Positions 13,961-56,845 of a DNA stretch of 64,000 nucleotides are shown here, in pieces. The position numbers were made by a program, and so were the translations under genes. This stretch comes from Fistulifera solaris (taxonomy: Eukaryota): contig AP026128.1 of NCBI GenBank assembly GCA_030295235.1, forward strand, positions 558,001 to 622,000, in the 5' to 3' direction. Positions within the stretch are counted from its first letter, which is position 1. The number at the start of each line of letters is the position of its first letter. Below the pieces are notes generated by a model, which worked only from the letters and a program-made list of their open reading frames with translations, made no database searches and had not been told where the DNA came from.

Positions 13961-14165
13961 GATTCATGACTGAAATGCAGTCGTCGGAAAGTTGATGTGA
14001 CACTGTTTTCGACGTAGAAATCGATGCATGAATTGAAAAATAATCTAAAAAAGTAAATCCCACTGCATAGATTAACAAATTAATAATTAGGAGAACGGAC
14101 TGAGTTTGGGTAGCACTATACGGCGGAATCGGCTCATGACTGAAGTGTAGTCGAGTCGTGTGGTA
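13961..14165 (+). repeat. Family A dispersed palindromic repeat, two copies 170 bp apart
   Basis: TCATGACTGAAATGCAGTCG at 13964 and TCATGACTGAAGTGTAGTCG at 14134; TTTTCGACGTAGAAA box after the first. Confidence 0.85.
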
Positions 14166-14291
14166 CAGTGGCAACAAATCTGATTGTTGTAAATTGAGGA
14201 AAAAATCTCCAAATCATGTTCTGACAATTTTAAAGTAATACTTGCATTAGTAACCTAATGATTACGACTTGAAAACAAGGAGTAAACGAAC

Positions 14292-14797
14292 GATAAAACG
14301 CTTCGAATGTCTACGCGTATTTTACGTAGCCGCCGTAGGAAATTTATCTCTGCAGGGGTACCCGGATATTGTGTTTTTTCTCCATCCTCCAATTCTTGGA
14401 TGTAGAGTGCCCGGATGTCAATGTTTCCAAATACACCTTATTTGCTTCGTATCGAAAAACAAAAATTGTCATCGATTCGAAAACAAAAATGTCGATCGAA
14501 CGAATGATGCAACGCTTCGAATGTCTACGCAGTTCCACGTAGCTCTCGTAGGGAAATTTATCGACAGAGGGGACACCCGGATATTGTGTAGTTCCGATCA
14601 CACCATTTTTCGCGTCTTTTGGACACCAATTGCAACAAAACTTTGCCCAACATGGCTTATGCAAGCCACCCAACAATAATCTACCTTGATTCGACTGTGA
14701 AACATCAAACAGTAAAAAGATAAAACGCTTCGAATGACTACGCGTATTTTACGTAGCCGCCGTAGGAAATTTATCTCTGCAGGGGTACCCGGATATA
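14292..14797 (+). repeat. Family B array: three ~78-bp conserved cores at 213-214 bp period
   Basis: AACGCTTCGAATGWCTACGC..ACGTAGC..CGTAGG(G)AAATTTATC..AGGGG..CCCGGATAT; TTTATC anchors at 14343, 14557, 14770. Confidence 0.9.
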
Positions 14798-14892
14798 TAA
14801 TTTCTACGAAAACACACACCTTTTATTTGTACGTGGTAAATTTACCAGATTGTAACGCAATCATCATCATTCTTTCTTTCATCAATGCAACC

Positions 14893-15864
14893 ATGCCAAA
14901 ATTCGGTGAATGCTTGATATGCGCCGAAGAATTTGCACTGCTGAGACCAACGTCATGCTGCAAAAGGCTACGTGTCAGCCGTGCCTCTTTCAGCACATCC
15001 AATCAATTCTGGAAGAAGCACGAACGGGAGGCCGACGTCGTATGGTATGCCCCTTCGGATGTGGGAAGGAACTTACGGATTATGACATACGCCTTTGCTT
15101 TCATCGACAGCATTATTCGGCTATCTGGGATTTTTGTGGGATCGTTTCTTTATATCATTTTGTTCGGCTGGTATGTTCCGAAAGTTGCTTCGGTTACGTG
15201 TCGACACCATTACTATTGGCTGTATTGTTTGCATTCTAGAGGAGAATGTCGAGATCTAGAAGCCTATGAGAAATGGAGTGTTTTGACGGCTTATGCTGAT
15301 ATGAACAAGAAGCAGGATGCTGTGATTGTTCATTGTCCCGCCACCGACTGTGATTATTCCTGGATTGTTGCCGATCCCGGATTCCGTGAGAAGAAACGCA
15401 AGCATGAGGATAAAAGTCGATTTCTGTGGTATACACCAATGAAACCTGAGTTCGTTCCGACTAACTGGGTGGAACCCGATCTGATGAATATAGAAGTTAC
15501 CGGCTGGATAGCGCAAGATATTGACGATCCCCGCAATGATGCTCGAAGAATGGTTTGCGGTAAATGCACGCACGTTTTCTGTGGACTTTGTCGCAATCCC
15601 TGGACGTATGAGAATCACCGTCACAACGGCTGCTCCTGTCGTAGTTATGCTCGCAAATTACCGCGCGGTTGGGATCATCAAGACATGGCTTCATGGACTA
15701 GTACTCGAGCCTGCCCGGGTTGTCAGCTGAGAACAACACGGATTTCTGGTTGCAATCACATGACTTGTCCGTGTGGGTATGAATGGTGCTATGTATGTCG
15801 TGGTTCGTGGAATTCATTACATTACAGTTGTGTGGACGGACAAACGAATTGCGTGATTTTGTAA
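14893..15864 (+). CDS. RBR (RING1-IBR-RING2) E3 ubiquitin ligase with C-terminal CaaX; compensating frameshifts near 14965 and 15140
   Basis: CLIC..CC / CQPC..CPFGC (second half in alternative frame); IBR HCPATDC..CGKC..FCGLC..H..C; RING2 CPGC..SGCNHMTCPCGYEWCYVC; ends CVIL. Confidence 0.85.
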   Translation: MPKFGECLICAEEFALLRPTSCCKRLRVSRASFSTSNQFWKKHEREADVVWYAPSDVGRNLRIMTYAFAFIDSIIRLSGIFVGSFLYIILFGWYVPKVASVTCRHHYYWLYCLHSRGECRDLEAYEKWSVLTAYADMNKKQDAVIVHCPATDCDYSWIVADPGFREKKRKHEDKSRFLWYTPMKPEFVPTNWVEPDLMNIEVTGWIAQDIDDPRNDARRMVCGKCTHVFCGLCRNPWTYENHRHNGCSCRSYARKLPRGWDHQDMASWTSTRACPGCQLRTTRISGCNHMTCPCGYEWCYVCRGSWNSLHYSCVDGQTNCVIL

Positions 15865-22581: not shown

Positions 22582-22917
22582 TATAGCAGATCGGTATTGT
22601 TTGCGAAAAAAGGAAAAAATGCTGCTTTTGTTGCAACTCGTGACTGAATTCCAGTCGGTTAACCATTGCGGATCCGTGCTTTGTCCGTTGACCGTTTTCT
22701 TTTCTGTGGTCCTCTTCTGCTCTGGTCGTCGTACGTCGATTTCTGACAGCGTGTAAAAAGCACGGCAAAACGCAACGATCGATCGACCGCAACGATTATT
22801 ATTGCGATGAATAATAAGGACAACAAACAATCAAGAACAGTCTCAAATAATTTACCATTATCCTTTTCGTTACGCATTTGAGTCAGTTACAGGTTTGTTA
22901 GGGCCTGTGCGAAAATC

Positions 22918-24347: not shown

Positions 24348-24400
24348 TCATGACTGAAATGCAGTCGCGGATACTTACACGGCGAAAATTTTACTCCGTA
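24348..24400 (+). repeat. Family A solo copy
   Basis: TCATGACTGAAATGCAGTCG at 24348-24367 and TACTCCGTA at 24392. Confidence 0.85.
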
Positions 24401-29967: not shown

Positions 29968-30514
29968 CAACTGCTGGGCACCTCCTCGACTATGAGAAAG
30001 AAAAAAATAAATGCTGTGGGCTATGTACACATGAAGAAATCGATGATGACAAAACAAGCTTATCTATAAAGCTTACGATACATCGAAATCCGTGATAGAG
30101 CTAGCAATGTAGAAATCATCGGCACGCTTTAACTTTTTATTAGCAGTTGCTGATTCATGATGAAACTTATTGTGGCGACCCTTCACTGAAAGTCTCATAA
30201 ATTGTTTCTGCGACCTGAATCATAGTGCTAATAACTCACAGAACCTAGCGAAGTAGATCCTTTCACCGGGGAGCCTGGGACATCTGTTGTTGCTTTCACA
30301 CTAATGCAGGATCGGTTTATACTTGCGTAGACATGAGTCCGTCAAAGATCCAAAGACATGAGTCCGTCAAAGATCCAAATGTAATGCAATCGTTCTTTCC
30401 ATCTTGCCCTTCCTTGAACTTCATGAATAGAACTAGTTGTCTTTGACATTTTGTAGTTGTATGGTTCGCATGCTTCAAACCACTTGTGAAAGCCAATAAC
30501 AAGAGTCATTCTCT

Positions 30515-32830: not shown

Positions 32831-33583
32831 GGTAGAATTGTTCTTTTATCAGTTGCTTTTGTCATCGAGGCTGGGTCGGTTTATTACTGAAACAACAATA
32901 TTATACGGCGACATTGCGCCCGCCATTACTTCGTACTGTACGGGTTTTTACTATCGACCCAAAGTGTTAGTTTAAGGAGACCACGACTGCATTTCAGTCA
33001 TGAATCAATAGTCTTTCGAGCGACGGATGTTACCTACAATTCGTTCGATCGCCCAGTTTCTTGCTTTATTTGTCATTGTTGCAATGAAACAGTCTTCAAC
33101 AGTGTTGTCATCATACGTCATTATATTTACGTCGAAGAGCCTTGCGAAACGTTGTCTGCCTTGGTTTTTTACTATGGACCCGAAGTGTTGGTTTACGGAG
33201 ACCACGACTGCATTTCAGTCATGAATCAATAGTCTTTCGAGCGACGGATGTTACCTACAATTTGTTCGATCGCCCAGTTTCTTGCTTTATTTGTCACTAG
33301 CCGCTTACGCGGGCTAGCCCCTGCGGGGGGCAAGAAAGAGGTGTAGGCGATAAAGTAGTTTTGTGAATGTAGTGTAACTGTAAGTGTATTTTTAGTTTAG
33401 ATTGAAATATTTATTGAAAAATCTCTTTGTAGACCACATTTCGAGTAAAAATTTGGTCTTGTGGTAACTGATTTTGGATATAGATGACTTCATCTTGATT
33501 GGCATGGACAAATACTTAAGAAAAGACTGCAAGTATGAATTGTTACTTTCGGCTAGAATCCGTTGCAACTCTTCAAAAATTGA

Positions 33584-34732
33584 TCAATCCATTTCCCGGT
33601 CAGAAGTATTTCCGTCACGCACATGTTGCAATCTGAGCTCTGCTTGAAGGGCAGGATCATAAAAGTATATTTGCAAGCACTTTGGGATTTCATGTTCGGA
33701 AGGAAGTAATGGACCAATACGTCTTACCATCTGTCCTGATATTCTAAAAGCAGACGGCCCACCATGATTCACAGTTTTATCTTCTACTTGAAGAGACGCC
33801 ATAGCCATTCCTGAATTGAATTTTCTTATGTGTTTACGAAAGTATTTACTTCGTGGATCGTCACTTGTCATTAACTTTCGTAAATCAGGTGGCAACTGTC
33901 GGTAAGAAGGTAGCTTGATTTTACCTTGATTGCAACAAAGTTTACCCAAGTGGGGTTTTGCTCGAGTTCCTTTGTTTTCCGATTTAAAGCCAAGCGCCCC
34001 ACAGTAACTACAACAAATATTTTGAGGTCCGATATCGTACGGGGTCACACTTCTTGCATCAAAGGTATCAATATCACAATTTCTTCCAGACATAAAAATA
34101 CGACGATGTCGTGTATTGTTATTTTGTCGTTGCTGCCGGTGTTGCGCATTGTTGTTTTGTCTTTCGTTTTCTCTTTCTTCGGCATTCAAACTTTCTCTTC
34201 GGGCACGATTGCGAGCGCTGTTGTTGCTCCTTTGATGTGCATGGTCTTCCTCATCCAAAGCTTCTCTTCGAGCACGATTGCGGGCGGTATTGTTCCTCCT
34301 TCGGTGCTCTCGCTCTTGCTCATTCAAACTCTCCCTGTGAGCACGCTGTCGCAAAGCATTCTTCAACTTCTGTTCAACTTTTCCGGTTGCTGTTTTTACT
34401 CTTTGACGATACGAACGTTGTCGCAAAGCATTCTTCATCAGTTGATTGTGAAGTTGTGCTGTTGTCTTCGCTCTTTCACGATACGCACGTTGACGCAAAG
34501 CATTCTTCATCAGTCGATTGTGAAGTTGTGCTGTCGTCTTCGCTCTTTCACGATACGCACGTTGACGCAAAGCATTCATCCGTCGCTTGGCTTGTAACAC
34601 ATCATCATCGGCATCACTTCTTGTCAATTTTGATGGTTCGATATATACTTTGTTTATTGCGTTCATCTTTCTTCCGGCATCACTTCTTGTCAATTTTGAT
34701 GGTTCGATATATACTTTGTTTATTGCGTTCAT
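33584..34732 (-). pseudogene. truncated Helitron RepHel N-terminal region (no HUH Rep or Pif1 helicase)
   Basis: CSYCGA..F..E..CC.QGKI.LP zinc-binding motif; FRKHIRKFNS.MAMASL, FRISGQMVRRIGPLLP, PKCLQIYFYDP typical of Helitron N-termini; 24-aa KNALRQRAYRER repeats. Confidence 0.85.
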
Positions 34733-34880
34733 CTTTCTTCTTTCGGTTTTGTGCTATCAAAAGTGCACAAACGCAAAACGCAAAACGAAACGAAAGCGAA
34801 AAGAGCACAAACGCAAAACGGAAGCAAAAAGAGCACAAACGCAAAACGGAAGCAAAAAGAGCACAAACGCAAAACGGAAG
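34340..34880. repeat. internal tandem repeats of the Helitron: 72 bp x4, 66 bp x2, 28 bp x3
   Basis: GCAAAGCATT at 34351/34423/34495/34567; GGCATCACTTC at 34610/34676; GAGCACAAACGCAAAACGGAAG at 34803/34831/34859. Confidence 0.9.
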
Positions 34881-35489
34881 ACTCAGAAACGTCGCATTCG
34901 AAATTCGAAGACCAAGGAAACGTCACTCTACACTTTACTACTACGTACAATTAAATGTAAACTCGACAAAAGAACGTAAACTCGACAAAAGAACACAGAA
35001 CAACCAATGGGAACAAAGCAAACAACACAAAAAACAAAAGGAACGTCAAATCCGTGACTCGGACACCCGGGACCAGCGTTACGTTACGTTACGTGACACA
35101 CACACGGACACAGCGCGCTATTATAAATAGATATAAATAGATTGTTGCAATGAAACAGTCTTCAACAGTGTTGTCATCATACGTCATTATATTTACGTCG
35201 AAGAGCCTTGCGAAACGTTGTCTGCCTTGGTTTTTTACTATGGACCCAAAGTGTTGGTTTACGGAGACCACGACTGCATTTCAGTCATGAGTCATGAATT
35301 CCCGAGCCGTCCGTACATGATACGTGCGATGCTGTACCGTTTACCGCTTTACTTTCTGCAAAAACCCAACAAAAGCTTTTGTTTGCTCCACCGCGATGGA
35401 AACAGACTCGGACGTTCATCACCAAGTGGATCGAATTTACAAGTTTCTTTCATTCCAAATTAAGCAAATTACTCACCAATAATCTCAAA

Positions 35490-38377: not shown

Positions 38378-38430
38378 CGTACCACTATAGACTTTAGAGT
38401 AAAGACGTTCGTTTCAGTTTTCAGTCATGA
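38378..38430 (-). repeat. Family A degenerate solo copy
   Basis: reverse complement TCATGACTGAAAA followed about 27 nt later by GTCTATAGTGGTA (box B end). Confidence 0.6.
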
Positions 38431-38490
38431 TGCTGTCTACTGTCTACTCTAGAGAGACTACCTGTACTGTTCAATTGGGACGAATGACGA

Positions 38491-39931: not shown

Positions 39932-40374
39932 CACGTTGTGGCTGCTTCCTTATGCATGCACAAGGACAAAGAAATAGATGAGTAGCAAAGCATGGCAAGC
40001 CTATCTACAAAAGCAAGTAATTAAAATATGTGCTATTAGCTTCAGCTCCTTTTGCTGTTGAAGAGCACGATATCTTGTCAATCCGACAGAAAACTTGGGA
40101 ACGGACACCCGCAGTTGCCGTCCACGCTTACCTGTTGTTAGAAGTGATGGCGCTCAAAGATGAATTGTAGTGCAGTCAAAGCCTTCCAAACGAATATCAT
40201 TGAACGAAAAGAAAGGAAGATACAGTTTTTGCTTGTATAGTTATAGTCATTTTCTCTATCACATAAAGGATCGGAATGAATCCGGTCAGGACTTATGAGC
40301 TAGCAGCACGATAACTAGTTGCAATTCGTCGCTTTCATTGAAGGACCAAGCAGACGGCAGCTGAACGTATCTGC

Positions 40375-41095
40375 CTATAGAATAATGCACCCGCAATTGT
40401 TCGGCTCGACAGCTTCTTCGCTCACTGCTGGTCGATCGAAGGAAGGTGCCGATTTGACAGTAGGTTTGGAAGCTGACACGGCCTTGGTGGGAGACGGCGG
40501 AGCCGGTGTGGCTGCTGGGGTAACAACAGGCGCAGAGTCTTCCGCTTTTACTTCTTTCACAGCAACTGGAGCGTCAGCTTCTTTTGTAGGAGCGACAGCA
40601 GCAGGTTTGGTCTCTGGTTCATCAACTGGCTCTGGTTCCGGTTCCGGTTGAACCATTGGCTCCGGTTCCGGCTCAGATTCAGGCAGAGCAGGCTCTGGTT
40701 CGGCTTCTGGAACAGCAACTGGCTCTGGTTCGGGTTCGGGGACAGAAACGGGTTCTGGCTCCGGCTCCGAGACAGCGACGGGTTCCGGTTCGGACACAGA
40801 CTCGGGCACGGCAACGGTTTCTGGTTCGGCTACAACCGCAGATTCCGTCTGTGCGGGCTCTTCTGTCGGAACTTCGGCCGCCACCTTGCTATCCGATGCT
40901 TCCGTAATGACTCCCTCATCTTGGGAAGGAATTTCTGGCGTTGTTTCGACCACATCAGACGGTATATCTTCCAAAGTGTCGACCGACTTGATCTCGGTTA
41001 AAGTAGGGCCACTCTCGACCGATTGCGCATCGTTGCCCGGCTTCTTGGCGCCCTTACCTTTGCCTCCTTTTCCTTTTTTTGTTCTTCTTGCCCAT
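40375..41095 (-). CDS. Glu/Pro-repeat disordered protein with basic N-terminus and C-terminal CaaX (CGCIIL)
   Basis: ATG at 41095 gives MGKKNKK if one base is restored in a homopolymer; EPEPEP repeats; ends NNCGCIIL. Confidence 0.7.
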
Positions 41096-41547
41096 TTTAA
41101 AAGATATCCTTCGCTTTCAAGTCGTCGCTGTGCCGATTGACTCACCTCGTAATAAAAATGGTTGCGTTGTCGTTTGTCGATTGATGACACTTGGCGAACG
41201 AACGGCCATCTGCGCAACCATGACCGTGACCAGAGTACACTATGAGATAGAGAGCGCGCGCGATGAAGCTGATGTATAAAACATTTTAACGTCTTTCAAC
41301 GTCCAAAACACATTCATCATAGTCTACAACGAATACAATCGGAAGCGAGCCAGCCTGTCCCTTCCGTTCGTGGTTCGTGACTCGTGACCCACAAGGTGAG
41401 ACGTGACCCGCATTCCCCAAACTCGTGCCACACTCGATCTTTTTCGAAAACAAAAGAACAACAATAACGATAGATTAACTAACATAACAGCGCACTGCTT
41501 CATGTATGGAATGATTGAAACAATAAACGACGACGAGAGGTGAACGG

Positions 41548-43836
41548 ATGAAGCCTATTGCCTTTGTTCGACGTATTTCGGTGTTGTGGTTTCTGTTCAG
41601 CGATCTTCGTTGGACGGATGCATTTCAAATACTAGTGAGATCTTTGTCCGTGGCTCCACGAGAGGTGTCACAAAGGACACGAAGGAAGCTGCTTTTGAAT
41701 GTCAAGAGGCTTGGGGCAGATGATTCATTAACGTCGAACAAAACACAAGCCAACAATTCCTTCCTTTTGGCCGAAAAGACGGAGGAAGATTTCAACGACA
41801 TGTCCGGTTGGGTCACTGGATTGCGTCAATGGCCCTTGATTCCCATAGATATCGAGACGAAGGAAACAAAGTATTACGATTCGTCGAACGAGCAGTCTTC
41901 CGGTGGTTTCCCTTTGACACGGATTCTGAATATGGAAGCACTATTGGCATTTGCGACACGCAAGGGAGAAGAAAGTGAAGTTCCCTCCAAGTTGACGACG
42001 GAAAAAAACGAATTGAATGATGATATCGTAGTTTCTATGGTGACTTCGGTGGAAAACAACACGTCAAACACCTCAAGTGACATACTGGATTTCTCTTTTC
42101 TGGAAGAATTGAGCGCTTGGGACAAGTGGGTCGATGGTCTTCGAGAAAACATTGGAGGTATCCGCAACCAAGGAACGGTACTCAGTCGTTCGAGTGGCTT
42201 TCTGCGGCAGACAACGTCCCGAATCGAGTCTCTTTTGGTAGACGCTTCATCGGTGGTATCACCAAGAACCTTACAGGCCACGTTACGATGGGCGAGCGAA
42301 ACCATTCTCAACCAAACACTGGCGGATCGATTGCTCGAAACGGCCCGTGATATTGCTCTCGATCGTGGTTTAAACATGACAGAGGCAACCGAATCGGCGC
42401 GGGGTACCACGGATTTTACTATCGACCTTGTGACTGTGGCGGATGGAGTTCTGAGAAAAGGATACGTGGAAGGTGATCCTATTCCTCGTAGACGAAACGA
42501 CATTCTTTATGGTATTCCAAGCATTCCTGCATCCCGTGCACTCTTTTCCGACTTTCCGTCGGCGGTCGAGATCAATGTTATGTCACCAGTGATAGTGAAA
42601 GATGCCGAAATGGGAGCGTTGGCAGGAGCTATCTATCAAGAAACGGTACCTAGAACGCAAGCCTTGGGTCAAAATATTGTTGCGCAAGGTGTTTCCGAAG
42701 ACGTCAAATGGATGATCACTGATAGCATTGCAAACGAAACATCATTTACGCTCGCTAAGGGATCAAATGACAAACCATTTCTTGTAAGAACAATAACGAT
42801 TCGGGGTTATGATGCATCCGACGAAGCTGTTGATCGTGAGCGTCTTCTGAACCGCGTGTGTGCAGCGTCGCCGGAGCTGGTGGACGTTGGTGGTGGTGTT
42901 TACTTGCACTCTGGCTTACGAAATATTGCCAAGGCGATTTACAACGACACGAAACAGTACATTGACTGGACAGCTCCCGACTGCAAAATCGTGCTCAATG
43001 GACATTCCATTGGCGGGTCTCTTTCTATTTTGGTTCTATTTGAAATGATTCTAGAAAGAGGATCTGACTATGTCCTGAATAAGATCAAGAAAGTTTATAC
43101 ATACGGGTCTCCACCGATTGCGACATTGGTGACACCTCCCAAAGCACCTCGTCCGGGGGTTTGCTATGTTTTGAATTCCTTTGGTGTACCGTCGTCATTC
43201 GTTTCGTCATACATTCAGCCCTGGGATCCGATTGTTCGACTTTTCTCAGGAATCGATGCATTGTATCCACTGGTTGGAGATCTTGGTACCGATGGTGTTA
43301 CACCATGGGCAAACGGCCCACCCCGCACCTTGCGACCTGTTGTCAAGGCCTTGTTGGAAGCATGGGATGGATGGCCGAGCTTTCGTGCGAATATTCAAGT
43401 AAACTTGAAGCAAAATTATACAATTGTTGGTACTCCGTTCCTTCTTCTACCAGACCCAACTCGCTATCTTGCGGATCGATACTTTTCGGTGAACATTCCA
43501 GTGCCGGCGGTGGAAACGATCCTTCGGTTGTCACCTCATGAAGTATTACCTGCACTTGGCACCCTTTTTGTATTGGACGTTTTCGAATTGAGTTTATTGC
43601 CACAGGCCATCCGTGGATTTGTACATCATTTTTATCCCGCCTACGACAACCCGCTCATCGATTATGCAAGACGGATGTCGCAAAAACCAAAAGAGCCACA
43701 AGTCTCGAGTGTTTCCCTTCTTGAGAAGCAGAAAACTGCCGAATTAGCTGAGCCATTAAGTAAGGTCAAAGTTCCTCCCCGACAGGACAAAACGAGTGGA
43801 TGGCGCGTGGCTACACAATGGTTTCAAGGTGAATGA
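41548..43836 (+). CDS. class-3 lipase (alpha/beta hydrolase) with N-terminal targeting peptide
   Basis: ITIRG, LHSG, VLNGHSIGGSL nucleophile elbow, YTYGSP, DPIVR; TDA-F presequence. Confidence 0.85.
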   Translation: MKPIAFVRRISVLWFLFSDLRWTDAFQILVRSLSVAPREVSQRTRRKLLLNVKRLGADDSLTSNKTQANNSFLLAEKTEEDFNDMSGWVTGLRQWPLIPIDIETKETKYYDSSNEQSSGGFPLTRILNMEALLAFATRKGEESEVPSKLTTEKNELNDDIVVSMVTSVENNTSNTSSDILDFSFLEELSAWDKWVDGLRENIGGIRNQGTVLSRSSGFLRQTTSRIESLLVDASSVVSPRTLQATLRWASETILNQTLADRLLETARDIALDRGLNMTEATESARGTTDFTIDLVTVADGVLRKGYVEGDPIPRRRNDILYGIPSIPASRALFSDFPSAVEINVMSPVIVKDAEMGALAGAIYQETVPRTQALGQNIVAQGVSEDVKWMITDSIANETSFTLAKGSNDKPFLVRTITIRGYDASDEAVDRERLLNRVCAASPELVDVGGGVYLHSGLRNIAKAIYNDTKQYIDWTAPDCKIVLNGHSIGGSLSILVLFEMILERGSDYVLNKIKKVYTYGSPPIATLVTPPKAPRPGVCYVLNSFGVPSSFVSSYIQPWDPIVRLFSGIDALYPLVGDLGTDGVTPWANGPPRTLRPVVKALLEAWDGWPSFRANIQVNLKQNYTIVGTPFLLLPDPTRYLADRYFSVNIPVPAVETILRLSPHEVLPALGTLFVLDVFELSLLPQAIRGFVHHFYPAYDNPLIDYARRMSQKPKEPQVSSVSLLEKQKTAELAEPLSKVKVPPRQDKTSGWRVATQWFQGE

Positions 43837-43916
43837 ACGAGCCTACGATAAACGTTCTACAATATATCACTTCCTGTAACACGTAAAATAATTTTCACTA
43901 TTAGATCACTACTTCT

Positions 43917-44605
43917 TTACGAACTCTTGGATTTCTTCAACTTTGTAAGCAGTCGTCCGACTGCGCTGAAGAATCGCAAACGCTTCGATGGCTTGTACGG
44001 TTGACATTCCGGAAAGGGCAAAGCTTTACCGACACCATAAAAGTAGGCGAATGCACCTCCTAGACCGCCGGTATTCCCAATGCGGCGATCGACCGTGTAA
44101 AAGCCAAACTCCTTGATTTTTCCGTCTTCCGAAAAGTCCATATGCAGCACTTGCGGCGGCAAAATCAACTTTTTTCCGGTGGCCTCAACTCCCATAAAGG
44201 GAGCTTTGTGCACGGATTCGACGCGACTGAAGAACCACACTCGATTGGTTTGCAGAGGATCGACGAGAAATCCAAAAATTGGTTGTCAATATCAAACGAA
44301 TCGGTCAACTTGAAGCTGGCCAACGATTCCAAAAATTCCGTTTTCCCGATAGGCCCAATGACCGGGGCACAAAATTCAAAATCTTCCGCCAAACAATCTC
44401 CATTGTCGACCGTACCGATGGCTATTTCCGGTCCCAAGAGTTCCTTGGCCTTTTGAATCAAATCGGCTGGAGCAATGGGAAATTTGGATTGAGCGAGAAG
44501 GGCGGCTTCGTCCAAGGTCGCTACCGGCGTCGGCTTCACGTTGATGGACGAGAAGGCCCACACGGCTGATGGAAGAAGAGGAAGGATTGTCAAACAGACT
44601 TTCAT
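43917..44605 (-). CDS. plastid-targeted SnoaL/NTF2-like protein (tentative fold); frameshift near 44275
   Basis: VWA-FSS presequence; LAEDFEFCAPVIGP, NRVWFF, ATGKK..LPPQ, GNTGGLGGAF. Confidence 0.6.
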
Positions 44606-45163
44606 GATGTGTAATAACCTTGTGGATTGGCGTCTTTGAAGGATTATTACTCGGAAGATACAATGATAGTCTCGAACGCAATTGTTGCTCGCGCGAAAAC
44701 CTTGTGGAAAATGAGCGAGAGGGAAAAGGGAAAAGAGAAAAGAGAAAAACGCCTGTAATTGGTCTACAGTAACCTTTACAGTACCAAAGCTTTCGAATGA
44801 CGTTGACGTTAGGCGGATGACGTGTCTCACTCGCTCTACTTATTGTACCTGGTACGGTTACAATAGTGGATAAAAAAACGACCTTGAACGAACAAACATC
44901 TCAGATCTAAGGTTTAATAAATCGCTTCATTATTTTAGTTCTTTGTCGATACTCTCTCTACATCCAGACTTCAAAATATTTTGAGATACATTCGTGCTTA
45001 GTCCTATTCCGGGGCAAAATTAACACTGCGTTCCAGTCAAGGAACCATGGCTCGCAAAACGGAAAGAACTTGTCATCTTTACCTTGTAGGATTACGTAAG
45101 GGAGGGAGAAAGCCATGGATTACCGCGTTTCTTCAAAAAGGCGCTAGACCCCACGCAAGCATT

Positions 45164-47228
45164 CTAGCTAAGAGATTGTAAGAATGAACAACCGTTGATG
45201 ACTTTTGTAGTGAGACAAACAATGTGATAGGGAAAACTGGGTCGTTTCGATAAGAACCGAAGAGCGGCCAATTCTGTAAACGTTACACCACCAACGTAAG
45301 TAACAATCAAGACTGGCTTCTTTCCTTTCACTCCGTCGGCTACTTCGGCTTCGGCGAGTGCTCCCAGTGTTCTGCTAGGAGGAGTTTTCAATGCAGAAGA
45401 CAGGTCTCGAGGTGGGCTGTGCTGTTCTACATCGACGATTCTTCCGGGGATTTCACGTAGAATCTCATCTCTTCCATTCCATCCTTTCATCGCCGTCTGG
45501 ATAAGACGCACGCTCAAGGGTGCGTACCCACTGGACACATAGGACACGTCATCGGGTTCTACCGTATCTACCTCTGCATTGATCAGGATCAACGACTTGC
45601 GTAAATTGTTGAACGGGGAAGTCGTGTCAATCCATAGACCGTCCCGCCGGCGAAGTAAACCAGCCTTTTCTAAATTCCCCAAAATGAACAAATATTCATA
45701 TCCGTACGTCTGGATGACATCGCGGCGTAAGCTGTCGTATCGCGAGGACTTAATGCCTCCCGCGCAAAGTGATTGCAAGCACAAAAGTCGAAAAAAAGCG
45801 ATAAGGTGGATATTGACAGGCAACCAGATCGTCCAGCATATCGTAGCACGTATCACCTTCTAAAATAGAACGTTCCATCTGCCACCTTTCTCGAAATGTC
45901 GTCTCTTCGCTTGTATGTTTGACAAGCTCCGCGAGATGTATATGATTCGTCAAAGATCTCAGATTTTGCGTAAAGACAGGGATGTTTTTGACAAATTGGT
46001 GGATTTCGGCCAAGTCTTTCTTCTTGCCCTTGCTAGTAAAGTTGGCATGGGACTCTCGTAAAGCCTTGGCCTGATTTTGAAGGAATGATCCGAACTTCTC
46101 AACATGCTGGTCGCGGACTTCGGCATAGAGAGTGTCTGACCCGTTAACGCCCAGTGAAACGAGTTCCTTCTTCGTTTCCTTCGTTTGGTCTTGCTTGAGT
46201 GCATCGGAATTGTCGTTTGCATCAGAATTAATTGTATTGACATCGAGTGTAATGAATCCACAATCGATTCCTACAACATCATCAAGAAGTCCTTCATACG
46301 TCAATGGGGAAATCATGGGCGTCACCAAATCCACTTTACGATCGATGATAATCAGCGCAGTTACGTCGCCTCCGCTAACCGTTTGTCCCGACTGCTCCTC
46401 GGCACGATCTCTGTCGGCCAAATATTCGTCTACGGTCATACTGGATAGCTTTCGCGCCACTTCCTCGCCAAGTGGTCCATATGCCTGAATGCGAGGTATC
46501 TTGCCGCATACATCTTGCAATTTGAGCAAGCTCCGAGCTACGGTTGTTATGAGAGCACTTGGCGTGCTTTCGACGGCACATTCCCGAAATGCTTCATTGT
46601 ATTCGATCGACAAGACGTCTGTTTCCAGAGGGTATATATCCATCTGCAGGCGATAAATCGAGACATTTGGGGCAGAACTAAGCCCTAGATCTTTCATCAA
46701 TTTGTAAATGATCGCCGTGGGCTGTGGAAGAAAGACGAGTCGATGATGAATTCGAAACGATTTTTTCAAATTCCGAATCCGCTTGGCGACAAGCTGCATT
46801 TGTGAAAGATCCGCTGGTGATAGAAAGTATGTAATGACATCAACATTACCCTCCGTCTCTTCTCCGCCGTGCTCTTGATTCAGAATTTGTGTGCCTACAA
46901 TAGTAATTGATGCTGGTAGAGGGAAAAACAAATGAGCGTCCCAGTTTTTCTTCTTTCCCTGAAACGTTCGCGTATGTGGGTCGGAAAGAACCTGGCGTAA
47001 AAGCAGCGTACGCAAACTTTCTGTTCCAAACACTAAAAGCTGTCGAAAAGAAGACGAAGCAAGCCCTGCTGAAGGATCGGATTGAAGCAGTGTCAAGAGT
47101 TGCTCTTTGTTATCGAGACGGAGCGCCACGGACACTGCTGGCAGCGGATTAAGCGGCGTAGGCGGTGGCAGGATAATTTCAGATTCCTTGTCGGCAACAA
47201 TTCCAGGATTATCCATGTTTGCTAACAT
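45164..47228 (-). CDS. VPS33: Sec1/Munc18 family protein VPS33; frameshift near 45795
   Basis: PLETDVLS, IIIDRKVDLVTPM..LTYEGLLD, LYAEVRD, QTYGYE..L.NLEKAGLL, YV.SGYAPLSVRL, GGVTFTELAALRFL. Confidence 0.92.
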
Positions 47229-47322
47229 TCTAGATACTGTTTTGTTGTTTGTTGTTATGCTTATTGTGCAATGAAAAATGCGGCAGCGTGTCGCGTCTTC
47301 TCACTCCGTATAATCTTTAGTT

Positions 47323-47605
47323 TCCGGGTCCCCTCTGTCGATAAATTTCCTTACGAGGGCTACGTGAAATGCACGTAGGCTTTTCAGGTCGCGCATCTTT
47401 TGTCATTTTTTCTACATTTCGACTTCGACGATGTCGATTACTGATTTCTGGTATCGCTTAGTTGTGTCGGCAATGGTAATGATGGTGTTGATTAGCCGTT
47501 TCACCCGAAAGGGGTGTGGTGAAAATTTGAAATGTCGGGGTGCTAACTACATCGATAAAATCACTACGGAGGCTACTTGATAAGCACGTAGACATTCGAA
47601 GCGTT
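47323..47605 (-). repeat. Family B array, two cores at 214 bp period
   Basis: reverse complement CACGTAGCCCTCGTAAGGAAATTTATCGACAGAGGGGACCCGGA (about 47323-47366) and AACGCTTCGAATGTCTACGTG..GTAGCCTCCGTAG..TTTATCG (47535-47605); GATAAA anchors 47340 and 47554. Confidence 0.85.
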
Positions 47606-47923
47606 AGATCTTCCTTCTTCTTCCCGTGTTATGTTCGAATTGATGTAAAGTATTGCTATTGCTTCTAACGAGCTGTGTTGATGATATTTAAAGTGACTTT
47701 TGCTGAAAAGATACCCACTTATAACTCTCTTGACTAATTGAGGTGATCGAATTTTTTTGAAAGAGTGACGTAAGCATGTATTACGTCAGCATGGCGTCAG
47801 CCTCGCGAAGATTTCGATCTCGGTTTGTCATTCTGACACAGAATGGAGCAACCAGTTTCCACTTTTATACCTTGTGTCTTCCATTGTTTTATTGCTATCC
47901 TTCCCGAACGTCAAACACTCAAC

Positions 47924-48349
47924 ATGAAAGTTCTGAACGTAGTTTCTTCATCCCTCTTGCTAATTGGTGCGGCACATGCCTTTACCGTTCCTTCGAATGG
48001 TTCTCTCCGAACCGAAACAGCTTTGAACGGTCTTTTCGACGGATTCAAAGGTATGGGAAGTGGAAAAGCGGACTTGGACGAGGAATGGAGAAGACAGCAA
48101 GCTTATTTGGCGAATCGTCAGAAGTTACTGAAGGAAGGATATTTCGAAGGGCAGATGGAAGCCAGAATGAACGCCAGAAAAGCCGCCATGGAGAAGTTCA
48201 ATGCTGGCGTCGTCGCTCCTTCACAGGCCGCGAAGGAGGAGGAAGTTAGTCAGCCCGTAAAGAAGCGTGCCTCTGTTGACGAAGAGGTCTTTGTGGACGA
48301 AAGTGCCGACTTTATGGGGGCCTTGAAAAATTTCTTCAAGAAGGAATAA
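47924..48349 (+). CDS. small plastid-targeted hypothetical protein
   Basis: signal peptide AHA-FTVP, transit-like segment, LDEEWRRQQAYLANR helix. Confidence 0.7.
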   Translation: MKVLNVVSSSLLLIGAAHAFTVPSNGSLRTETALNGLFDGFKGMGSGKADLDEEWRRQQAYLANRQKLLKEGYFEGQMEARMNARKAAMEKFNAGVVAPSQAAKEEEVSQPVKKRASVDEEVFVDESADFMGALKNFFKKE

Positions 48350-48690
48350 GCGGTGTGCAGCGAGTGTACTGGAACAAGCTGGGTCGGCTGTTGCAAGAGT
48401 TTCCTTTTATATCCATACTGATATCCTCATGTACGATTTTATCTAATGCGAGGTTTTATAAAGCTCAATGACTTTTCTATGTAAACGAATATCTTCATCG
48501 GTTGATGCAAATAATTGGAAGCGCTAGTAAAACCAATCAAACGGAATCGTAACCAAAGGAACGTGCATTGCAGATTTCGAGAACAACAAGCAAGCTAGTG
48601 GTATATGCCCCATCAAACAAGCCTATGAAGAGTAGGTGTTTTCGTGAAAAGAATGGCATACCCATGGTAAAAGTCGAATACACATAGATG

Positions 48691-48955
48691 TTTCGTGACT
48701 GGAATGCAGTCGTGAAAAAGGTCGCATAGACTTTGGGCTTATAGTCGATTTTTTATGGCGACGTTCGCCAGTCCCCAAGGCTTTTCGACATAAAACATCA
48801 TCGAAGAGTAAATTATCAGCATATCTTCAATGCAGTGTCACTTGTATAAATGAGCAAGAAGAACGGAAAATGATAAGCAGTCCTGTGAAGCATGTTCATG
48901 ACTCATGACTGAAATTTGGTCGTGGCAAAAACGGACAACACTTTGAGCTATAGTC
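48691..48955 (+). repeat. Family A diverged pair, 210 bp apart
   Basis: TCGTGACTGGAATGCAGTCGTG at 48693 with CAAGGCTTTTCGAC box; TCATGACTCATGACTGAAATTTGGTCGTGG at 48896 with CAACACTTTGAGCTATAGT. Confidence 0.8.
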
Positions 48956-49256
48956 GTTTCATTACCGGTAAGTTTTTTGTTGATGGTGACGTGCTTCAAA
49001 CGCAAAAACGTTTTGCGCTTGAAAAGAAAGGTGCGGAATTTTCTAGGACCCTCTTTGGCTGTGTCTTAGAAAACGCTCACCCTTCTAAGCTCTTGTTTGT
49101 CACAAAACGGTCCGTAATGGATTTATGGCGGCTTCGACGCGCGGAGTGAAGCTAATTGGGCCATGTCAAGACGACATCGTCTTGATTTCTTTCCAGAATG
49201 TGCACGCACATTTCTGAAGTATGTGTTCAGCGACATCTGATCCGCCTTCTTCGACC

Positions 49257-50584
49257 ATGGTACTCCGTTCCACGCATACGACCACTCTCTGTGAGCCTGC
49301 GCTAGCGCGACATTGGCAAATGGCCGTCGATAATCCGTCGTGTATCACGCACGAAATTTTTGCACCATGCTTCGACATCACCCTCCTTTGCACGTCGTTC
49401 AAAGTTTGTTGTCATTGAATCGGACGCTGGCTGTTTGTCCGCCGAATGAAGCGACTCCGGCGCTTCATGTCGGCGTGCAAAGCAATTGTGAACTAGCCAT
49501 CATTGCTTGTTTGGTGGAAGCGTGGCCAGAAGGTTTGCTGCGAAAGGCCCCTTGTGGGCGCAGTCAGGTTCGCATGGACCCACTGATGTATGCAAAACTA
49601 TATCGACGCAGTGATTTTCGACTTATTGAGCTCTTGAGTACCAACAATGTGTCAGCGTGCCAGAAGAGCGATTTTGTGACTCTCAATGGATTGTGTCAGT
49701 CCCAGTATTCGACGCTCGTAAACGACTCCTCTAAGGCTACAGAGACAGGAACCGAGAAATCTTTTGCGCCAAGAGTGCAATATGTAAATCATACTTTGAC
49801 TTCTGCCGTCCCTTCGCTGGCTGTCAAGCGATTTACATCTGACTCTGGTGACGACGGCAATGATGCTAGTGCAACGCCGGGCGTTGTGAACGATGAGGTA
49901 AGTCGGCTCGGTGCGAAGCCGATTTATTCACCCCTTATCGAACCTACGTATACCGGTGACAAGATAGACCAAGTCTATCATCAACACATTCATGCTGCGA
50001 TGTCCTACGAACAAGAAATGGCTGAATTGCGAGCTACATGTAAGGGCGTTTTGAGAGAGCATCATCGTCTGGTAGAGCGAGTGAAGATTTTGGAAGATCA
50101 AGACAAAGTGAAGGCTTGCCAATCTAAAGAAAGAAATGAGGCATGGCGTTCAGAGTTAATGTCTTCAGTCGCAATGCAAGTAAACCGGCAACTTTATCAG
50201 CAGTCGAAGGCACTGGAAAAGATTGTGGAGCGTTTGGAGCATGACGTCTTAAGTTCTCACAAGGATACACGTCTACAATCAGAGCTCATGAACAGCAGGA
50301 CATCGCAAACGGAGTTGATGATGTTGTACATGCAGCAGCAAATGGAGGAGAGGTTTCCTGTGGATCGAACACAAGCTCGAAAACGCTCGAACAAACAAAA
50401 AGTACAAGATGAAAAAGATACTGCCGACGATTCTCGCTCACTGCTTCGTGAAGATGAATACCATGACCTTTCGAAAAAGCCTTATCAGTTGGGACACAAG
50501 CGGCGATTTTCAAAAAGGCTTGGCATTTTCTATGTCAGGCATAATTGTGCTCGAAATATTGGCAAGCTTACAGTTCCCTTATAA
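49257..50584 (+). CDS. hypothetical protein with degenerate ankyrin-like N-terminus and coiled-coil C-terminus; frameshift near 49360
   Basis: HPPLHVVQSLL, PALHVGV..IIACLVEAWPEGL; heptad-rich segment. Confidence 0.55.
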
Positions 50585-52275: not shown

Positions 52276-53584
52276 ACCCTTTGTTGTTCGGTTCATGACT
52301 CATGACTGCTGTACAATCCAGTCGTGGCGGGCGTAAACCAACACTCCGTTTCATAGTGAAAATTCATTTGTTGTCGATCCTCGTATTTTCGACGTGAAAA
52401 TAAAAGAACAACTTAACAAGTAGTTCATAATCATCATTATTACGACTTTATTTACCCGTAATTATTATTATTAGATTCGCAGTCGAATGACAATGGACGG
52501 ATGCGAGAGACGCATAAACCGGAACCCTTTGTTGTTTGGTTCATGACTACTGTACAATCCAGTCTTGGCTGGCGTAAACCAACACTCCGTTTCATAGTGG
52601 TAATTCAAGGTGGCGATCGTCGGATTTTCGACGTGAAAACAAAAGAAACGCTTAACAAGTAGTTCAGAATCATCATTGTTGCGACTTTATCTACCCGTTA
52701 TCATAACTATATTCGCAGTTGAATGATAATGGACGGATGGGAGAGACGCATAAAACGGAACCCTTTGTTGTTTGGTTCATGACTACTGTACAATCCAGTC
52801 TTGGCTGGCGTAAACCAACACTCCGTTTCATAGTGGTAATTCATTTGTTGTCGATCCTCGTATTTTCGACGTGAAAATAAAAGAACAACTTAACAAGTAG
52901 TTCATAATCATCATTGTTACGACTTTATTTACCCGTAATTATTACTACGTATTATATTCGCAGTCGAATGACAATGGACGGATGGGAGAGACGCATAAAA
53001 CGGAACCCTTTGTTGTTTGGTTCATGACTACTGTACAATCCAGTCTTGGCTGGCGTAAACCAACACTCCGTTTCATAGTGGTAATTCATTTGTTGTCGAT
53101 CCTCGTATTTTCGACGTGAAAATAAAAGAAACTCTCAACAAGTAGTTCACAATCATCTTTGTTGCGACTTCATTATTTACCCGTAATTATTATTATTAGA
53201 TTCGCAGTCGAATGACAAATAGACGGATGCGAGAGACGCAAAACGGAACCCTTTGTTGTTCGGTTCATGACTACTGTACAATCCAGTCTTGGCTGGCGTA
53301 AACCAACACTCCGTTTCATAGTGGTAATTCATTTGTTGTCGATCCTCGTATTTTCGACGTGAAAATAAAAGAAACTCTCAACAAGTAGTTCACAATCATC
53401 TTTGATACGACTTCATAATTTACCCGTAATTATTACTACGTATTATATTCGCAGTTGAATGACAATGGACGGATGCGAGAGACGCATAAAACGGAACCCT
53501 TTGTTGTTCGGTTCATGACTACTGTACAAAATCCAGTCTTGGTCGGCGTAAACTAACACTCCGTTTCATAGTGAAATTTCAAGG
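52276..53584 (+). repeat. Family A-related tandem array, about 5.3 units of 236-248 bp
   Basis: TCATGACT at 52300, 52541, 52777, 53022, 53265, 53513; units near-identical apart from indels and one swapped segment. Confidence 0.97.
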
Positions 53585-53704
53585 ATGATTCACGAAAAGA
53601 GCCGCGTATCGGCCGCTTTAATTTGACAATACTGGTACAGTATCAAAAACATTTGTTATCATCTCGACTGTTGCTTTCCAAAGTATTGCATATTAAAAAG
53701 AGAA

Positions 53705-56578
53705 ATGTCAGCTTTCCGAGGCCGAGGCGCCGTACCGCCGAAGAATTACGTACCCGGACTGGGTCGCGGTGCCGCGGGCTTTACGACGCGGAGTGATGTG
53801 GGCCCGGTCGTCCCCGAAGACGCCGCCACCGGGAGTGGCAGTCGAGCGGCGGAAGCGCGGAAGCAATTGCAATTCGGAGTCGCGCCCGCCAATTATGTAG
53901 CGGGGGCGGGACGAGGGCCGGGACTTTGAATGCGCAGGGAGAGGAAGGACCCGTCGGAGCGTACGATAGTTTTTCTGGATATTCGGCGGCGCCCCAAGAA
54001 GGTCAATACGATGATGACGATGACGAAGCTGACAAAATATGGGCGACTATCGATGAGCGAATGAATCGAAAACGAAGGAAAAAAGGCGACAATACACAAG
54101 ATGATAATGATGACGCCGGTGGGCGAAAGCGAGCCAGAGCAAGGATCGGCGCGCAATTTCACGAACTCAAGGAAAAATTAGCCGAAGTCACAGAAGATCA
54201 ATGGGCTAGTATTCCGGACGTTGGGGATCATAGTTTGAAGTATAAGCAGCAGAGGCGACAGCAAGATACGTTCACGCCATTATCTGATTCACTTATCGAG
54301 CAGAGGAATAAGTCGCAACTGGACGCTTCCGCAGGCAATACGGCTCTTGCGGGTACTACGATAGCGGATGACGGATCTGGCTTTAAGTCAGTCGTAGCTG
54401 ATATGTCTGGCCTCAGTGCTGCTCGTGGCACGGTTCTTGGTATAAGTCTGGATCGAATGTCGGGGTCAGTTGCCGGCAATCAAACATCAATCGATCCAAA
54501 AGGTTATCTGACGAGTCTTTCTGGTATTCAGTCGGTTTCAAATGCTGAAGTGGCGGATATCAATAAAGCTCGCTTACTTCTGAAGTCAGTTCGCGACACC
54601 AATCCAAAACATGGTCCAGGTTGGATCGCGGCTGCTCGAGTGGAGGAGGCGGCTGGAAAGATGTTGCAGGCGCGAAAAATCATCCAGGAGGCTTGTGAGA
54701 TATGTGCCGACAACGAGGACGTGTGGTTGGAAGCAGCAAGGTTGCACCCTCATGATGTTGCAAAAGTATTCTGGCTACAGCCGTTCGCCGTGTCCCACGA
54801 TCTGTGAAAATCTTTCTCAAGGCAGCGGATCTGGAACATCTCGAATCGAACAAAAAAGCAGTGTTACGAAAAGGTCTGGAAGCCAACCCCTCTTCGATTA
54901 CGCTATGGAAAGCAGCGATTGCTTTAGAAGATGCTGAAGATGCACGACTTTTGCTACAAGTAGCAGTAGAAAAAGTGCCTCATTCGGTGGAAATGTGGCT
55001 GGCTCTAGCACGTTTGGAGTCTTACAAAAATGCTCAGAGAGTTCTCAATAGTGCAAGAAAAGCGTTACCGAATGATAGGTCGATATGGATTGCAGCTGCG
55101 AGACTGGAAGAATCACAAAATCACGACGAAGTCATTGACAAGATTATTCAGAGAGCTGTCAAGTCCCTCGAAAAGAATGAAGCTGTCGTGACTCGCGCGC
55201 AGTGGCTTCAAGAAGCCGAAGCGGCAGAAAGTTCTGGTGCAGCGTTGACGAGTGCTGCTATAATAAAGTATACAATTGGTAAAGATGTCGATGACGAAGA
55301 TCGACAAAGGACTTGGGCGGAAGATGCAAAGGAGCTGTCGCCCGTGGCTCCATATCAACTGCTAGGGCTATCCTGTCACACGCGCTACATCTGTTTCCAG
55401 CAAAAGGACCCTTTGGACACAGGCAATTGATCTTGAGCGTAACCATGGAACGGCGAAAACGTTGGATGAAGTGCTTGAAGCTGCAAGTGAGCGGCTTCCT
55501 CAAGTTGAGATTTTCTGGTTGCTACGGGCAAAAGAGCAGTGGGTCAATGGGGATGTGAATAAAGCTCGCGATATTCTTGCGAAGGCTTTTGCTGTGAACC
55601 CTGAATCGGAAGCTGTTTGGTTGGCGGCATCCAAGCTCGAGCATGAGAATGGAGAAGTCGAACGCGCTCGCTTCTTCCTGGAAAGAGCCAGGCAGAGGGC
55701 GCCAACGGCTCGAGTGTATATGAAAGCTGCTCTTTTGGAGAGAGAACAAAAGAATCTTGATGACGCACTTCAACTTATTGAGGAAGGCCTATCAAAGTTT
55801 GTTAAATTTAGCAAACTATACATGATGGGTGGTCAAATATGCTCAGAAGACTTACCACGCAACAAGACCAGTTTATCACGTGCAAGAAAATTTTACGAAA
55901 GAGGGTTAAAGGAATGCCCTGAAAGCCACATCTTGTGGATTCTAGCGAGTCGCTTGGAGGAAGAGGCTGTGCATTTTGAGGACGTTGTGACAAATAGTCA
56001 AGGGGCTGGTGCCACCAAAGCTAGAAGTATTCTCGAATTAGCGCGGTTGAAGAATCCCAAGAATCCACACCTTTGGCTGGAATCCATAAGACTTGAACGC
56101 CGGGTAGGGACAACGAAGCTTGCTGAGACGCAGATGGCAAAAGCCTTACAAGAGTGTCCAAAGTCTGGAATTCTCCTAGCCGAGTCGATACTGAGCAGTC
56201 CGCGTGTCGAGCAGAAGTCAAAGGCAGCAGAAGCGATCAAGCGTTGTCCAGATGATCCTTTGGTTATCGCGGCAGTTGCTTCTCTGTTTGCGTCAGAAAA
56301 CAAAAAATGACAAGGCGCGTAAGTGGTTTGATAGGGCCACGGTTCTGAATCCAGATATTGGTGATATCTGGGCTCGATTCTACTTATTCGAATTGAAAGC
56401 CGGTACGCAAGAGCAACAGGAAAAGGTCAAAGCGGCTTGCATTGCAGCAGAACCCAAACATGGAGATATTTGGGCGTCAATTATGAAAGATATGAGAAAT
56501 AGAGGTAAATCTGCTGCCGAAGGATTGGAGTTGGTTGCTGAGCACATTCGACTGGAACAGAAGAAAGCTCTCGCGTGA
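53705..56578 (+). CDS. PRP6: pre-mRNA splicing factor PRP6 (HAT repeats); about five frameshifts
   Basis: NYVPGLGRGAAGFTTRSDVGP, IDPKGYLTSL, DINKARLLLKSV..TNPKHGPGWIAAAR, EPKHG. Confidence 0.95.
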
Positions 56579-56780
56579 CGTGAACCCCATTTTAATCATA
56601 GTATGGCTAAAGCGCAAATTCAAACTATTATCAGGTTCATAAATGATTTGTTTGTGAGCAAATAAAGGTGAATTAAGGGCTATTGTCTCTACGAAGTAAG
56701 GACGTCCTTACTACGAAGCACTATGAAATAAAAATAGTACTCCGTACCAGGTATCGGCCTTGTAGCTAGCACCGCTAAAG

Positions 56781-56845
56781 AGTCATGATTCATGACTGAA
56801 ATGCAGTCACGAAGAAAAGTAATCTACACATTGGTCTATAGTACC
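56781..56845 (+). repeat. Family A solo copy
   Basis: AGTCATGATTCATGACTGAAATGCAGTCACGAA followed by CTACACATTGGTCTATAGT. Confidence 0.85.

What the first reader, a model, noticed from the sequence alone, without database searches (positions are those of the whole stretch)
13964..56845. Family A: a palindromic intergenic core found about 17 times, as solos, pairs and core-spacer-core arrays
Seen: box A (TCATGACTG-AAATG-CAGTCGTG; 8-10 bp inverted arms around a 5-nt loop) at 13964, 14134, 19901(-), 24348, 32984(-), 33205(-), 35271(-), 38419(-, partial), 48693, 48903 and 56790, plus six variants in 52.3-53.5 kb. Most are followed by box B (CAACACT-N5-7-ATAGT) and several by box C ((CAAGGC)TTTCGACGT.AA). 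Every copy is intergenic and most lie 5' of a gene. The boxes persist while the sequence between them diverges, and the arms stay complementary when the loop changes (AAATG, GAATG, AAAAAATG, TACAATC). Inference: this looks like a structure-constrained cis site, such as a nicking or recombination site of an unrecognised non-autonomous element or a chromatin/regulatory site, and not a neutral satellite. No cognate enzyme is visible in this window.
Basis: partly seen in the sequence, partly recalled or inferred. Interest (0 to 1): 0.8.

Follow-up and report, generated by a model that had tools for sequence, protein, structure and literature searches.

The report
Diatom palindrome repeat, partly Helitron-carried
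This is a real family of roughly 220-base non-coding repeats, each starting with a conserved palindrome, that lies in short rows between the genes of a hybrid diatom; some rows sit inside ordinary rolling-circle transposons that appear to have moved them, and what keeps the palindrome conserved is still open.

Summary
Real. All 17 listed copies are present; the 22-mer has 400 exact matches in G000 (control 0). The "core" is the head of one homologous ~217-bp unit, not a box in unrelated spacers. Box A outlasts the spacer even in copies found by spacer alone (median 0.83 vs 0.64), but its arms do not covary (421/500 shuffles as high), so it reads as a DNA dyad, not an RNA hairpin. Arrays are polar, differ between the two subgenomes, and one young subfamily lies on one subgenome only. 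A carrier is shown for a subset: 7 of 30 loci join the array end to a Helitron 3' module, 3 have a second one closing it, and one 526-bp composite ends hairpin-CTAG|T at a site empty in the homoeologue. The window does hold a deleted Helitron inside the 33-35 kb array. No intact RepHel or tyrosine recombinase was found. It fails the HINE, MITE, TRIM and retrozyme features tested and is not the published centromere motif. The scan noted what looks like this family at least four times on other pieces of this genome.

The parts
13964..13985 (+). Box A dyad, first of an old pair; box C follows after a deletion
   Evidence: box also in homoeologue (21/23 identical)
14134..14155 (+). Decayed box A, second of the pair
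   Evidence: 15.8 bits
19898..19922 (-). Box A with an 8-nt centre, no box B
22638..22659 (+).
   Evidence: 15.4 bits; weak counterpart in homoeologue
24348..24369 (+). Solo box A
32945..33231 (-). Two cores and one full 221-bp unit of the young subfamily; absent from the homoeologue
33297..35141 (-). Internally deleted Helitron1-type element inserted at A^T in a Family A spacer: 5' TC, 3' hairpin-CTAG
   Evidence: relatives at 3 other loci
33584..34732 (-). 382-aa ORF: N-terminal part of a Helitron RepHel; tip of the helicase remains at 33414-33518; no Rep domain
   Evidence: (39-52% identity to 10 proteins, 7 with PF14214)
35142..35297 (-). First core (with 7-bp doubled left arm) and first part of the spacer of the same array
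38383..38430 (-). Partial core: left arm and ATAGT box, right arm lost
48689..48956 (+). Old core-spacer-core pair shared with the homoeologue
52293..53576 (+). Six-core array of a diverged subfamily (period 236-250, widened dyad centre); absent from the homoeologue; 80-90% relatives at other loci
56783..56843 (+). Solo core; the homoeologue has a pair here, so one unit was lost
12429..12700 (+). 34-bp minisatellite whose units also flank many Family A arrays elsewhere

Best explanation
Family A is a dispersed tandem-repeat family: a ~217-bp unit headed by a conserved 23-bp dyad and an ATAGT box, in rows of mostly 1-3 and up to 13 cores. Shown: rows have a fixed order of unit types and often a shared right-hand end; some rows are the cargo of non-autonomous Helitron1-type elements on the opposite strand (5' module, array, 3' hairpin-CTAG), and one such composite is missing at the homoeologous site. 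Inferred: a RepHel, now lost or not assembled, started at one mini-Helitron, read past its CTAG and stopped at a second 3' end or near a box A dyad, copying the row to new gaps; rows then grew, shrank and swapped units by unequal exchange. Inferred: box A lasts because it is a double-stranded protein site or a stop signal that copies needed in order to spread. The Helitron step is shown for a minority only; for most copies the carrier is assumed.
For: One consensus over 65 units. Polarity: AAGTT-type core last in 16 of 58, middle in 1 of 68 (Fisher p=2e-5). The 15-mer right-end motif has 61 matches, control 0; 22 of 30 fetched lie within 230 bp behind a same-strand core. A model built only from 27 young mini-Helitron ends finds a 3' module 57-160 bp beyond that motif, opposite strand, in 7 of 30 loci and a second one left of the array in 3 (L099, L103, L104); 0 in 500 kb of long stretches, 30 control loci and reversed sequence. 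L104: 526 bp, TCTA...hairpin-CTAG|T, homoeologue empty with the 3' junction exact. L103 shares both modules. 129 of 129 hits of the young unit lie on contigs of one subgenome set (sets inferred). 26 of 43 arrays start within about 10 bp of box A. End bypass and tandem cargo are described for Helitrons (PMC5148889, PMC7492417, passages).
Against: Most arrays show no Helitron module. Young mini-Helitrons also insert into Family A (6 of 29 loci), no more often than an unrelated repeat lies beside it (6 of 29), so some adjacency is shared habitat. Only one empty site was obtained and its 5' junction is approximate; six further homoeologous sites gave no clean junction (output partly cut). No intact RepHel found. 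Box A is a weak hairpin on the Helitron strand (-3.5 kcal/mol as DNA) with no CTRR behind it. BLAST ends are biased towards the conserved box. The loci studied were chosen by similarity to the window's copies and right-end motif, not at random.
Confidence: 0.5

Rival explanations
1. Box A is a binding site for a host dimeric protein (transcription factor or chromatin organiser). The repeat spread as above or otherwise, and copies near gene starts are kept by selection.
For: Operator-like pattern: half-sites fixed, centre base free (62% vs 79-97% elsewhere), no covariation. Box A outlasts spacer in spacer-found copies. 0 of 47 convergent gaps hold a core (Fisher p=6e-4). Old pairs are shared by both subgenomes. 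Helitrons carrying rows of HSF-1 sites are known in Caenorhabditis (PMC6927752, passages).
Against: Between homoeologues box A is 70% identical overall, like the flanks at 72% (includes lost units). Many sites are subgenome-specific or lost. Other repeats also avoid convergent gaps: 5 of 40 vs 2 of 37, p=0.43. Orientation to the gene is 11 same, 9 opposite.
Confidence: 0.2
2. Family A is a non-autonomous element of an undescribed kind with its own enzyme, which nicks or recombines at box A so that unit circles integrate at existing cores.
For: Arrays often start at box A (26 of 43) and end after it or after ATAGT (23 of 43); a 7-bp doubling of the left arm is in 16 of 56 first cores vs 4 of 58 last; arrays mix subfamilies (L002, L070); a pair has collapsed to a solo at 56790.
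Against: The dyad centre varies from 5 to about 10 nt, unlike recombinase sites with fixed spacers (own knowledge). No tyrosine recombinase (prokaryotic profile, weak for eukaryotic enzymes), no Rep domain, no match in viral or metagenome contigs. Ordinary homologous exchange at the most conserved stretch gives the same picture.
Confidence: 0.15
3. A satellite-like repeat with no cis function, scattered by repair-mediated insertion or extrachromosomal circles; box A looks conserved because exchange between copies homogenises it.
For: Young arrays have ragged ends and replace target DNA; the same gaps hold other repeats in the homoeologue; other palindrome-bearing tandem families (34-bp, ~213-bp) share the habitat.
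Against: Shared right end and fixed unit order across many chromosomes and the Helitron-bounded composite with an empty site point to transposition of whole rows.
Confidence: 0.12
4. The core is a structured RNA (ribozyme, retrozyme or TRIM terminal repeat) and the unit spreads through RNA.
For: A-to-G change in the left arm that keeps a G-U pair on the plus strand is commoner than its mirror (23 vs 5).
Against: No Rfam match at E up to 1; no covariation; folding z-scores -2.0 to 0.0; hammerhead core pattern on 7 of 290 unit strands; cores do not end in CA and no A-tail follows.
Confidence: 0.03

Closest known systems
Non-autonomous Helitron1 elements with captured cargo and doubled 3' ends (features as summarised in PMC5148889, passages seen)
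   Same: 5' TC, 3' hairpin and CTAG, A^T target without duplication in L104; two 3' modules in tandem, as end bypass predicts.
   Different: Shown for 3-7 of 30 selected loci only; cargo is a tandem unit that is also abundant without any Helitron module; no autonomous partner found.
Cg_HINE of the Pacific oyster and DINE-1/HINE (PMC7492417, PMC4067079, passages seen)
   Same: Short dispersed arrays, mostly 2-3 monomers of satellite size, fixed orientation to a conserved right flank; works like them.
   Different: No subterminal inverted repeats (mean longest 9.3 vs control 9.5, 21 loci), no TT target, no 5' microsatellite module; carrier ends are Helitron1-type.
Caenorhabditis Helitrons carrying rows of heat-shock elements (PMC6927752, passages seen)
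   Same: Rolling-circle elements spreading repeated dyad-like sites into intergenic DNA.
   Different: There the factor and binding are shown; here no factor is known and no binding was tested.
Published Fistulifera solaris centromere/ARS motifs (bioRxiv 10.1101/2021.11.10.468027, sections 5-7 read)
   Same: Dispersed on nearly all chromosomes; share a CAGTCG hexamer; sometimes adjacent.
   Different: Motifs 1 and 3 are the 3' end of a separate A-tailed repeat; only 6 of 29 such sites have a Family A core within 600 bp, in either orientation.
Replitrons (PMC10288648, passages seen)
   Same: Direct repeats at both ends and a palindrome near an end.
   Different: Replitron repeats are about 6 bp, not 60; the paper detected none in diatoms; no Replitron Rep was searched for here.

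Membership tests
Helitron1 non-autonomous (composite L104 type) | 3' hairpin followed by CTRR | tested here: met
   L104 ends in a hairpin and CTAG; independent model hits
Helitron1 non-autonomous (composite L104 type) | 5' TC terminus | tested here: inconclusive
   TCTA at the expected place in L104 and L103, but the flank there is diverged from the homoeologue
Helitron1 non-autonomous (composite L104 type) | Insertion between A and T without target duplication | tested here: met
   One empty site; 3' junction exact at CTAG|T, homoeologue reads A^T
Helitron1 non-autonomous (composite L104 type) | Autonomous RepHel partner with the same ends | tested here: inconclusive
   Only internally deleted derivatives at 5 loci; PF14214 search rang in no control
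Helitron1 (the bare Family A unit) | Unit has its own TC and hairpin-CTRR ends | tested here: not met
   No CTRR behind box A on the minus strand, no TC at the unit junction
HINE / Helentron | 11-15 bp subterminal inverted repeats | tested here: not met
   21 arrays: 9.3 vs reversed control 9.5
HINE / Helentron | TT target, T-rich ends | tested here: not met
   Only empty site is A^T; right ends are not T runs
HINE / Helentron | Short palindrome near the 3' end | tested here: inconclusive
   4-bp arms in and behind the right-end motif, seen by eye
MITE | Terminal inverted repeats and target duplication | tested here: not met
   No inverted repeat above control within 150 bp of the ends; no duplication at L104
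TRIM | Terminal repeats bounded TG...CA | tested here: not met
   Cores run TGA...ATAGT
TRIM | Primer-binding site and polypurine tract | not tested
   No tRNA set was compared
Retrozyme / known ribozyme | Hammerhead or other curated ribozyme in the repeat | tested here: not met
   Rfam 0 matches; core pattern on 7 of 290 strands; no covariation
Tyrosine-recombinase site / Crypton-like | Fixed-length spacer between arms; recombinase gene | tested here: not met
   Centre 5 to about 10 nt; PF00589 no match (weak for eukaryotic enzymes)
Replitron | Y1 Rep transposase | not tested
Published F. solaris centromere/ARS motifs | Match to motifs 1 or 3 | tested here: not met
   They map to a separate A-tailed repeat; motif 2 not tested
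Any Repbase/Dfam entry | Sequence match | not testable with these tools
   Neither library is held

The most novel reading that the evidence does not exclude
Box A is the operator of a dimeric diatom protein, and Helitron capture has sown some thousands of these sites, in rows spaced about 220 bp, into promoter-facing gaps, differently in the two parental genomes of the hybrid. That would be a transposon-built regulatory or replication-related network in a diatom and a testable cause of homoeologue-biased expression. A bolder form: the protein is an undescribed recombinase that swaps units at box A.
Probability: 0.22. Interest if true: 0.72.

Novelty: new member of a known kind. Interest (0 to 1): 0.38.

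Why it matters
As it stands it adds a diatom case to transposon-borne dispersed tandem arrays, known from oyster, Drosophila and nematodes, with a Helitron1-type rather than Helentron shell. It gives subgenome markers for an allopolyploid alga. Because many gaps hold an array in one homoeologue only, the genome is its own control: a regulatory role of box A can be tested directly with existing expression data and a reporter. Not found in print; Repbase, Dfam and subscription journals were not searchable, and the closed supplements of bioRxiv 10.1101/2021.11.10.468027 (centromere sequences, 'small-scale repeated elements') could show this unit.

Tried and rejected
Rfam and ARAGORN on the window: nothing. 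Box A patterns in viral and metagenome contigs: 0 in four scans. PF14214 in G000: 0 but no control rang, uninformative. PF00589: 0. Sequencing runs: no RNA holder listed. Laying four runs on 30001-49500: the spliced, A-tailed run X3 has no cover in the 32601-33250 bin, which is no evidence on expression; among 15 of 76 joints shown, those near the array join repeat copies and none is a clean empty allele; X1 record 8 bridges the 48.7/48.9-kb pair unchanged. Idea that the 34-bp palindrome is a TIR or subTIR: rejected, it lies in the same orientation on both sides and also forms free arrays. Idea of a unique left terminus: rejected, the left segment is another spacer subtype. Idea that Family A is the published centromere motif: rejected. 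Idea that young mini-Helitrons target the family: not supported against a control repeat. The first Helitron-end model included composite sequences, so it was rebuilt without them. Homoeologue conservation test: no excess for box A over flanks (7 sites). Homoeologues of L103, L099 and four other composites were not obtained, so the empty-site test rests on one locus. Look-ups by sequence, relatives and words found nothing.
Full report
Setting. The window is G000:C13:558001-622000 of a 51.7-Mb genome in 62 contigs. Contig C14 is colinear at about 80-92% identity, so the genome has two subgenomes. I treat the species as likely.

Observation. All 17 listed copies are there. The ATAGT box follows 13 of 17, box C 9 of 17. 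None of 24 cores in 124 kb lies in an ORF. Genome-wide a 22-nt pattern has 400 exact matches, control 0. A core profile finds 51 cores in 500 kb of long stretches, 17 of them in 200 kb of the other subgenome; reversed sequence gives none. Extrapolating gives roughly 2,000-5,000 cores (inference; the window is richer than average).

Anatomy. The repeat is a ~217-bp unit; 65 units from different loci, including the 52-kb subfamily, align to one consensus. Arrays held 1-3 cores in 73 of 91 cases and up to 13 (selected loci). In 33 diverged units box A and ATAGT score 0.89 against the consensus, the link 0.44, the spacer 0.63 (found by core). Found by spacer alone, 25 hits still show box A at median 0.83 and 0.78 against 0.64 for spacer (the spacer model was trained partly on the same units). 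The arms do not covary: 99 distinct hairpins (of 108 listed; 9 shifted or redundant rows left out) give 2 two-sided changes, 421 of 500 shuffles score as high. The centre base is the freest position. This fits a double-stranded dyad better than a folded strand. One hint the other way: the change that keeps a G-U pair on the plus strand is commoner than its mirror, 23 vs 5.

Order and ends. Arrays are polar: one core type is last in 16 of 58 and middle in 1 of 68. Many end in a conserved segment with a 15-mer that has 61 matches; 22 of the 30 fetched sit just behind a same-strand core. 26 of 43 arrays start near box A (with BLAST-end bias). No unique left end and no inverted terminal repeats were found.

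Mobility. In the window the pairs at 13964, 48693 and 56790 have counterparts in C14; the 33-35 kb and 52-kb arrays do not. The sites at 19922, 24348 and 38430 are too diverged to call. All 129 hits of the young 33-kb unit fall on 19 contigs outside the set marked by another subgenome-specific repeat (only 40 of 319 candidates were scored), while box A itself is on both sets. So one subfamily spread in one parent (inference).

Carrier. The ORF at 33584-34732 is the N-terminal part of a Helitron RepHel, within a 1,845-bp element with TC and hairpin-CTAG ends at an A^T site of a spacer. It lacks the Rep domain, and only deleted derivatives were found. A young mini-Helitron family exists (42 matches) and inserts into spacers in 6 of 29 loci, no more than a control repeat neighbours the family. 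The stronger evidence is older: a model from 27 young mini-Helitron ends hits 7 of 30 right-end loci at a near-fixed distance on the opposite strand, and a second 3' module closes the array in 3. L104 is a 526-bp element of this build; C2 lacks it, the 3' junction is exact and the 5' junction approximate. Six other homoeologous sites gave no clean junction (partly cut from view). Helitron carriage is therefore shown for a subset and inferred for the rest.

Function of box A. Cores avoid convergent gaps (0 of 47), but control repeats are too few to show that this is special, and homoeologous copies are no more alike than their flanks. A host protein site stays open at about 0.2. A private nicking or recombining enzyme stays at about 0.15: none was found, and these searches are weak for divergent eukaryotic enzymes.

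Comparison. It works like the oyster Cg_HINE arrays (PMC7492417, passages) but fails the HINE subTIR and TT tests (features from PMC4067079, passages). The composites meet the Helitron1 3' end and target tests (features from PMC5148889, passages). Replitrons were not detected in diatoms (PMC10288648, passages). HSE-bearing Helitrons are the regulatory analogue (PMC6927752, passages). The published centromere motifs 1 and 3 (bioRxiv 10.1101/2021.11.10.468027, sections 5-7 and passages read, supplements closed) belong to a different repeat. TRIM, retrozyme and recombinase-site features are from my own knowledge.

Verdict. A real, abundant repeat not found in the papers searched, best filed as a new member of transposon-borne dispersed tandem arrays. 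Four earlier notes on other pieces of this genome describe what appears to be the same family (their sequences are hidden, so identity is by description). New here: the Helitron-bounded composites with an empty site, array polarity and the subgenome-limited subfamily. Interest 0.38.

Noticed in passing
window 31460-31528 (+); L134-L163: The published centromere/ARS motifs 1 and 3 form the 3' end of a dispersed repeat that often ends in an A run (SINE-like), with one variant per subgenome. The motifs may mark a retroposon rather than a centromere signal.
   Followed up: partly
window 33297-35141 (-); G000:C1:1208k, C13:1412k, C30:469k, C28:255k: Internally deleted Helitrons keeping the N-terminal zinc-finger region and the helicase tip. 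Run X3 has a contig over 33871-34415 with 2 differences, which may come from a near-identical copy.
   Followed up: partly
L165-L193: Young 170-300 bp mini-Helitron family (TC...hairpin-CTAG), some with long GT microsatellites or in tandem; all 42 listed hits are on one subgenome set.
   Followed up: partly
window 12429-12700; L047 (C13 about 626k), L139, L163: 34-bp minisatellite with a short palindrome, in free arrays and beside Family A; present in one homoeologue and absent in the other at some sites.
   Followed up: partly
L047-L048 junction region (C13 about 632k), L007, L078, L190: Another dispersed tandem family, period about 213 bp, built of ~52-bp palindromic subunits.
   Followed up: no
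window 14272-14574 and 47328-47630: A further dispersed repeat in opposite orientations, with very high contig depth at 46901-47550.
   Followed up: no
window 2016-13822: Cluster of six paralogous membrane-protein genes (weak GPDPase_memb match for the one scanned), shared with the homoeologue.
   Followed up: no
L037 (C14 about 570.4-571.7k): The homoeologue holds a different 1.2-kb sequence where the window has the 33-35 kb array.
   Followed up: no
L219 (C4 about 678k): The pyrimidine-rich tail seen behind the Family A right end occurs here without the array, next to telomere-like TTAGGG units.
   Followed up: no
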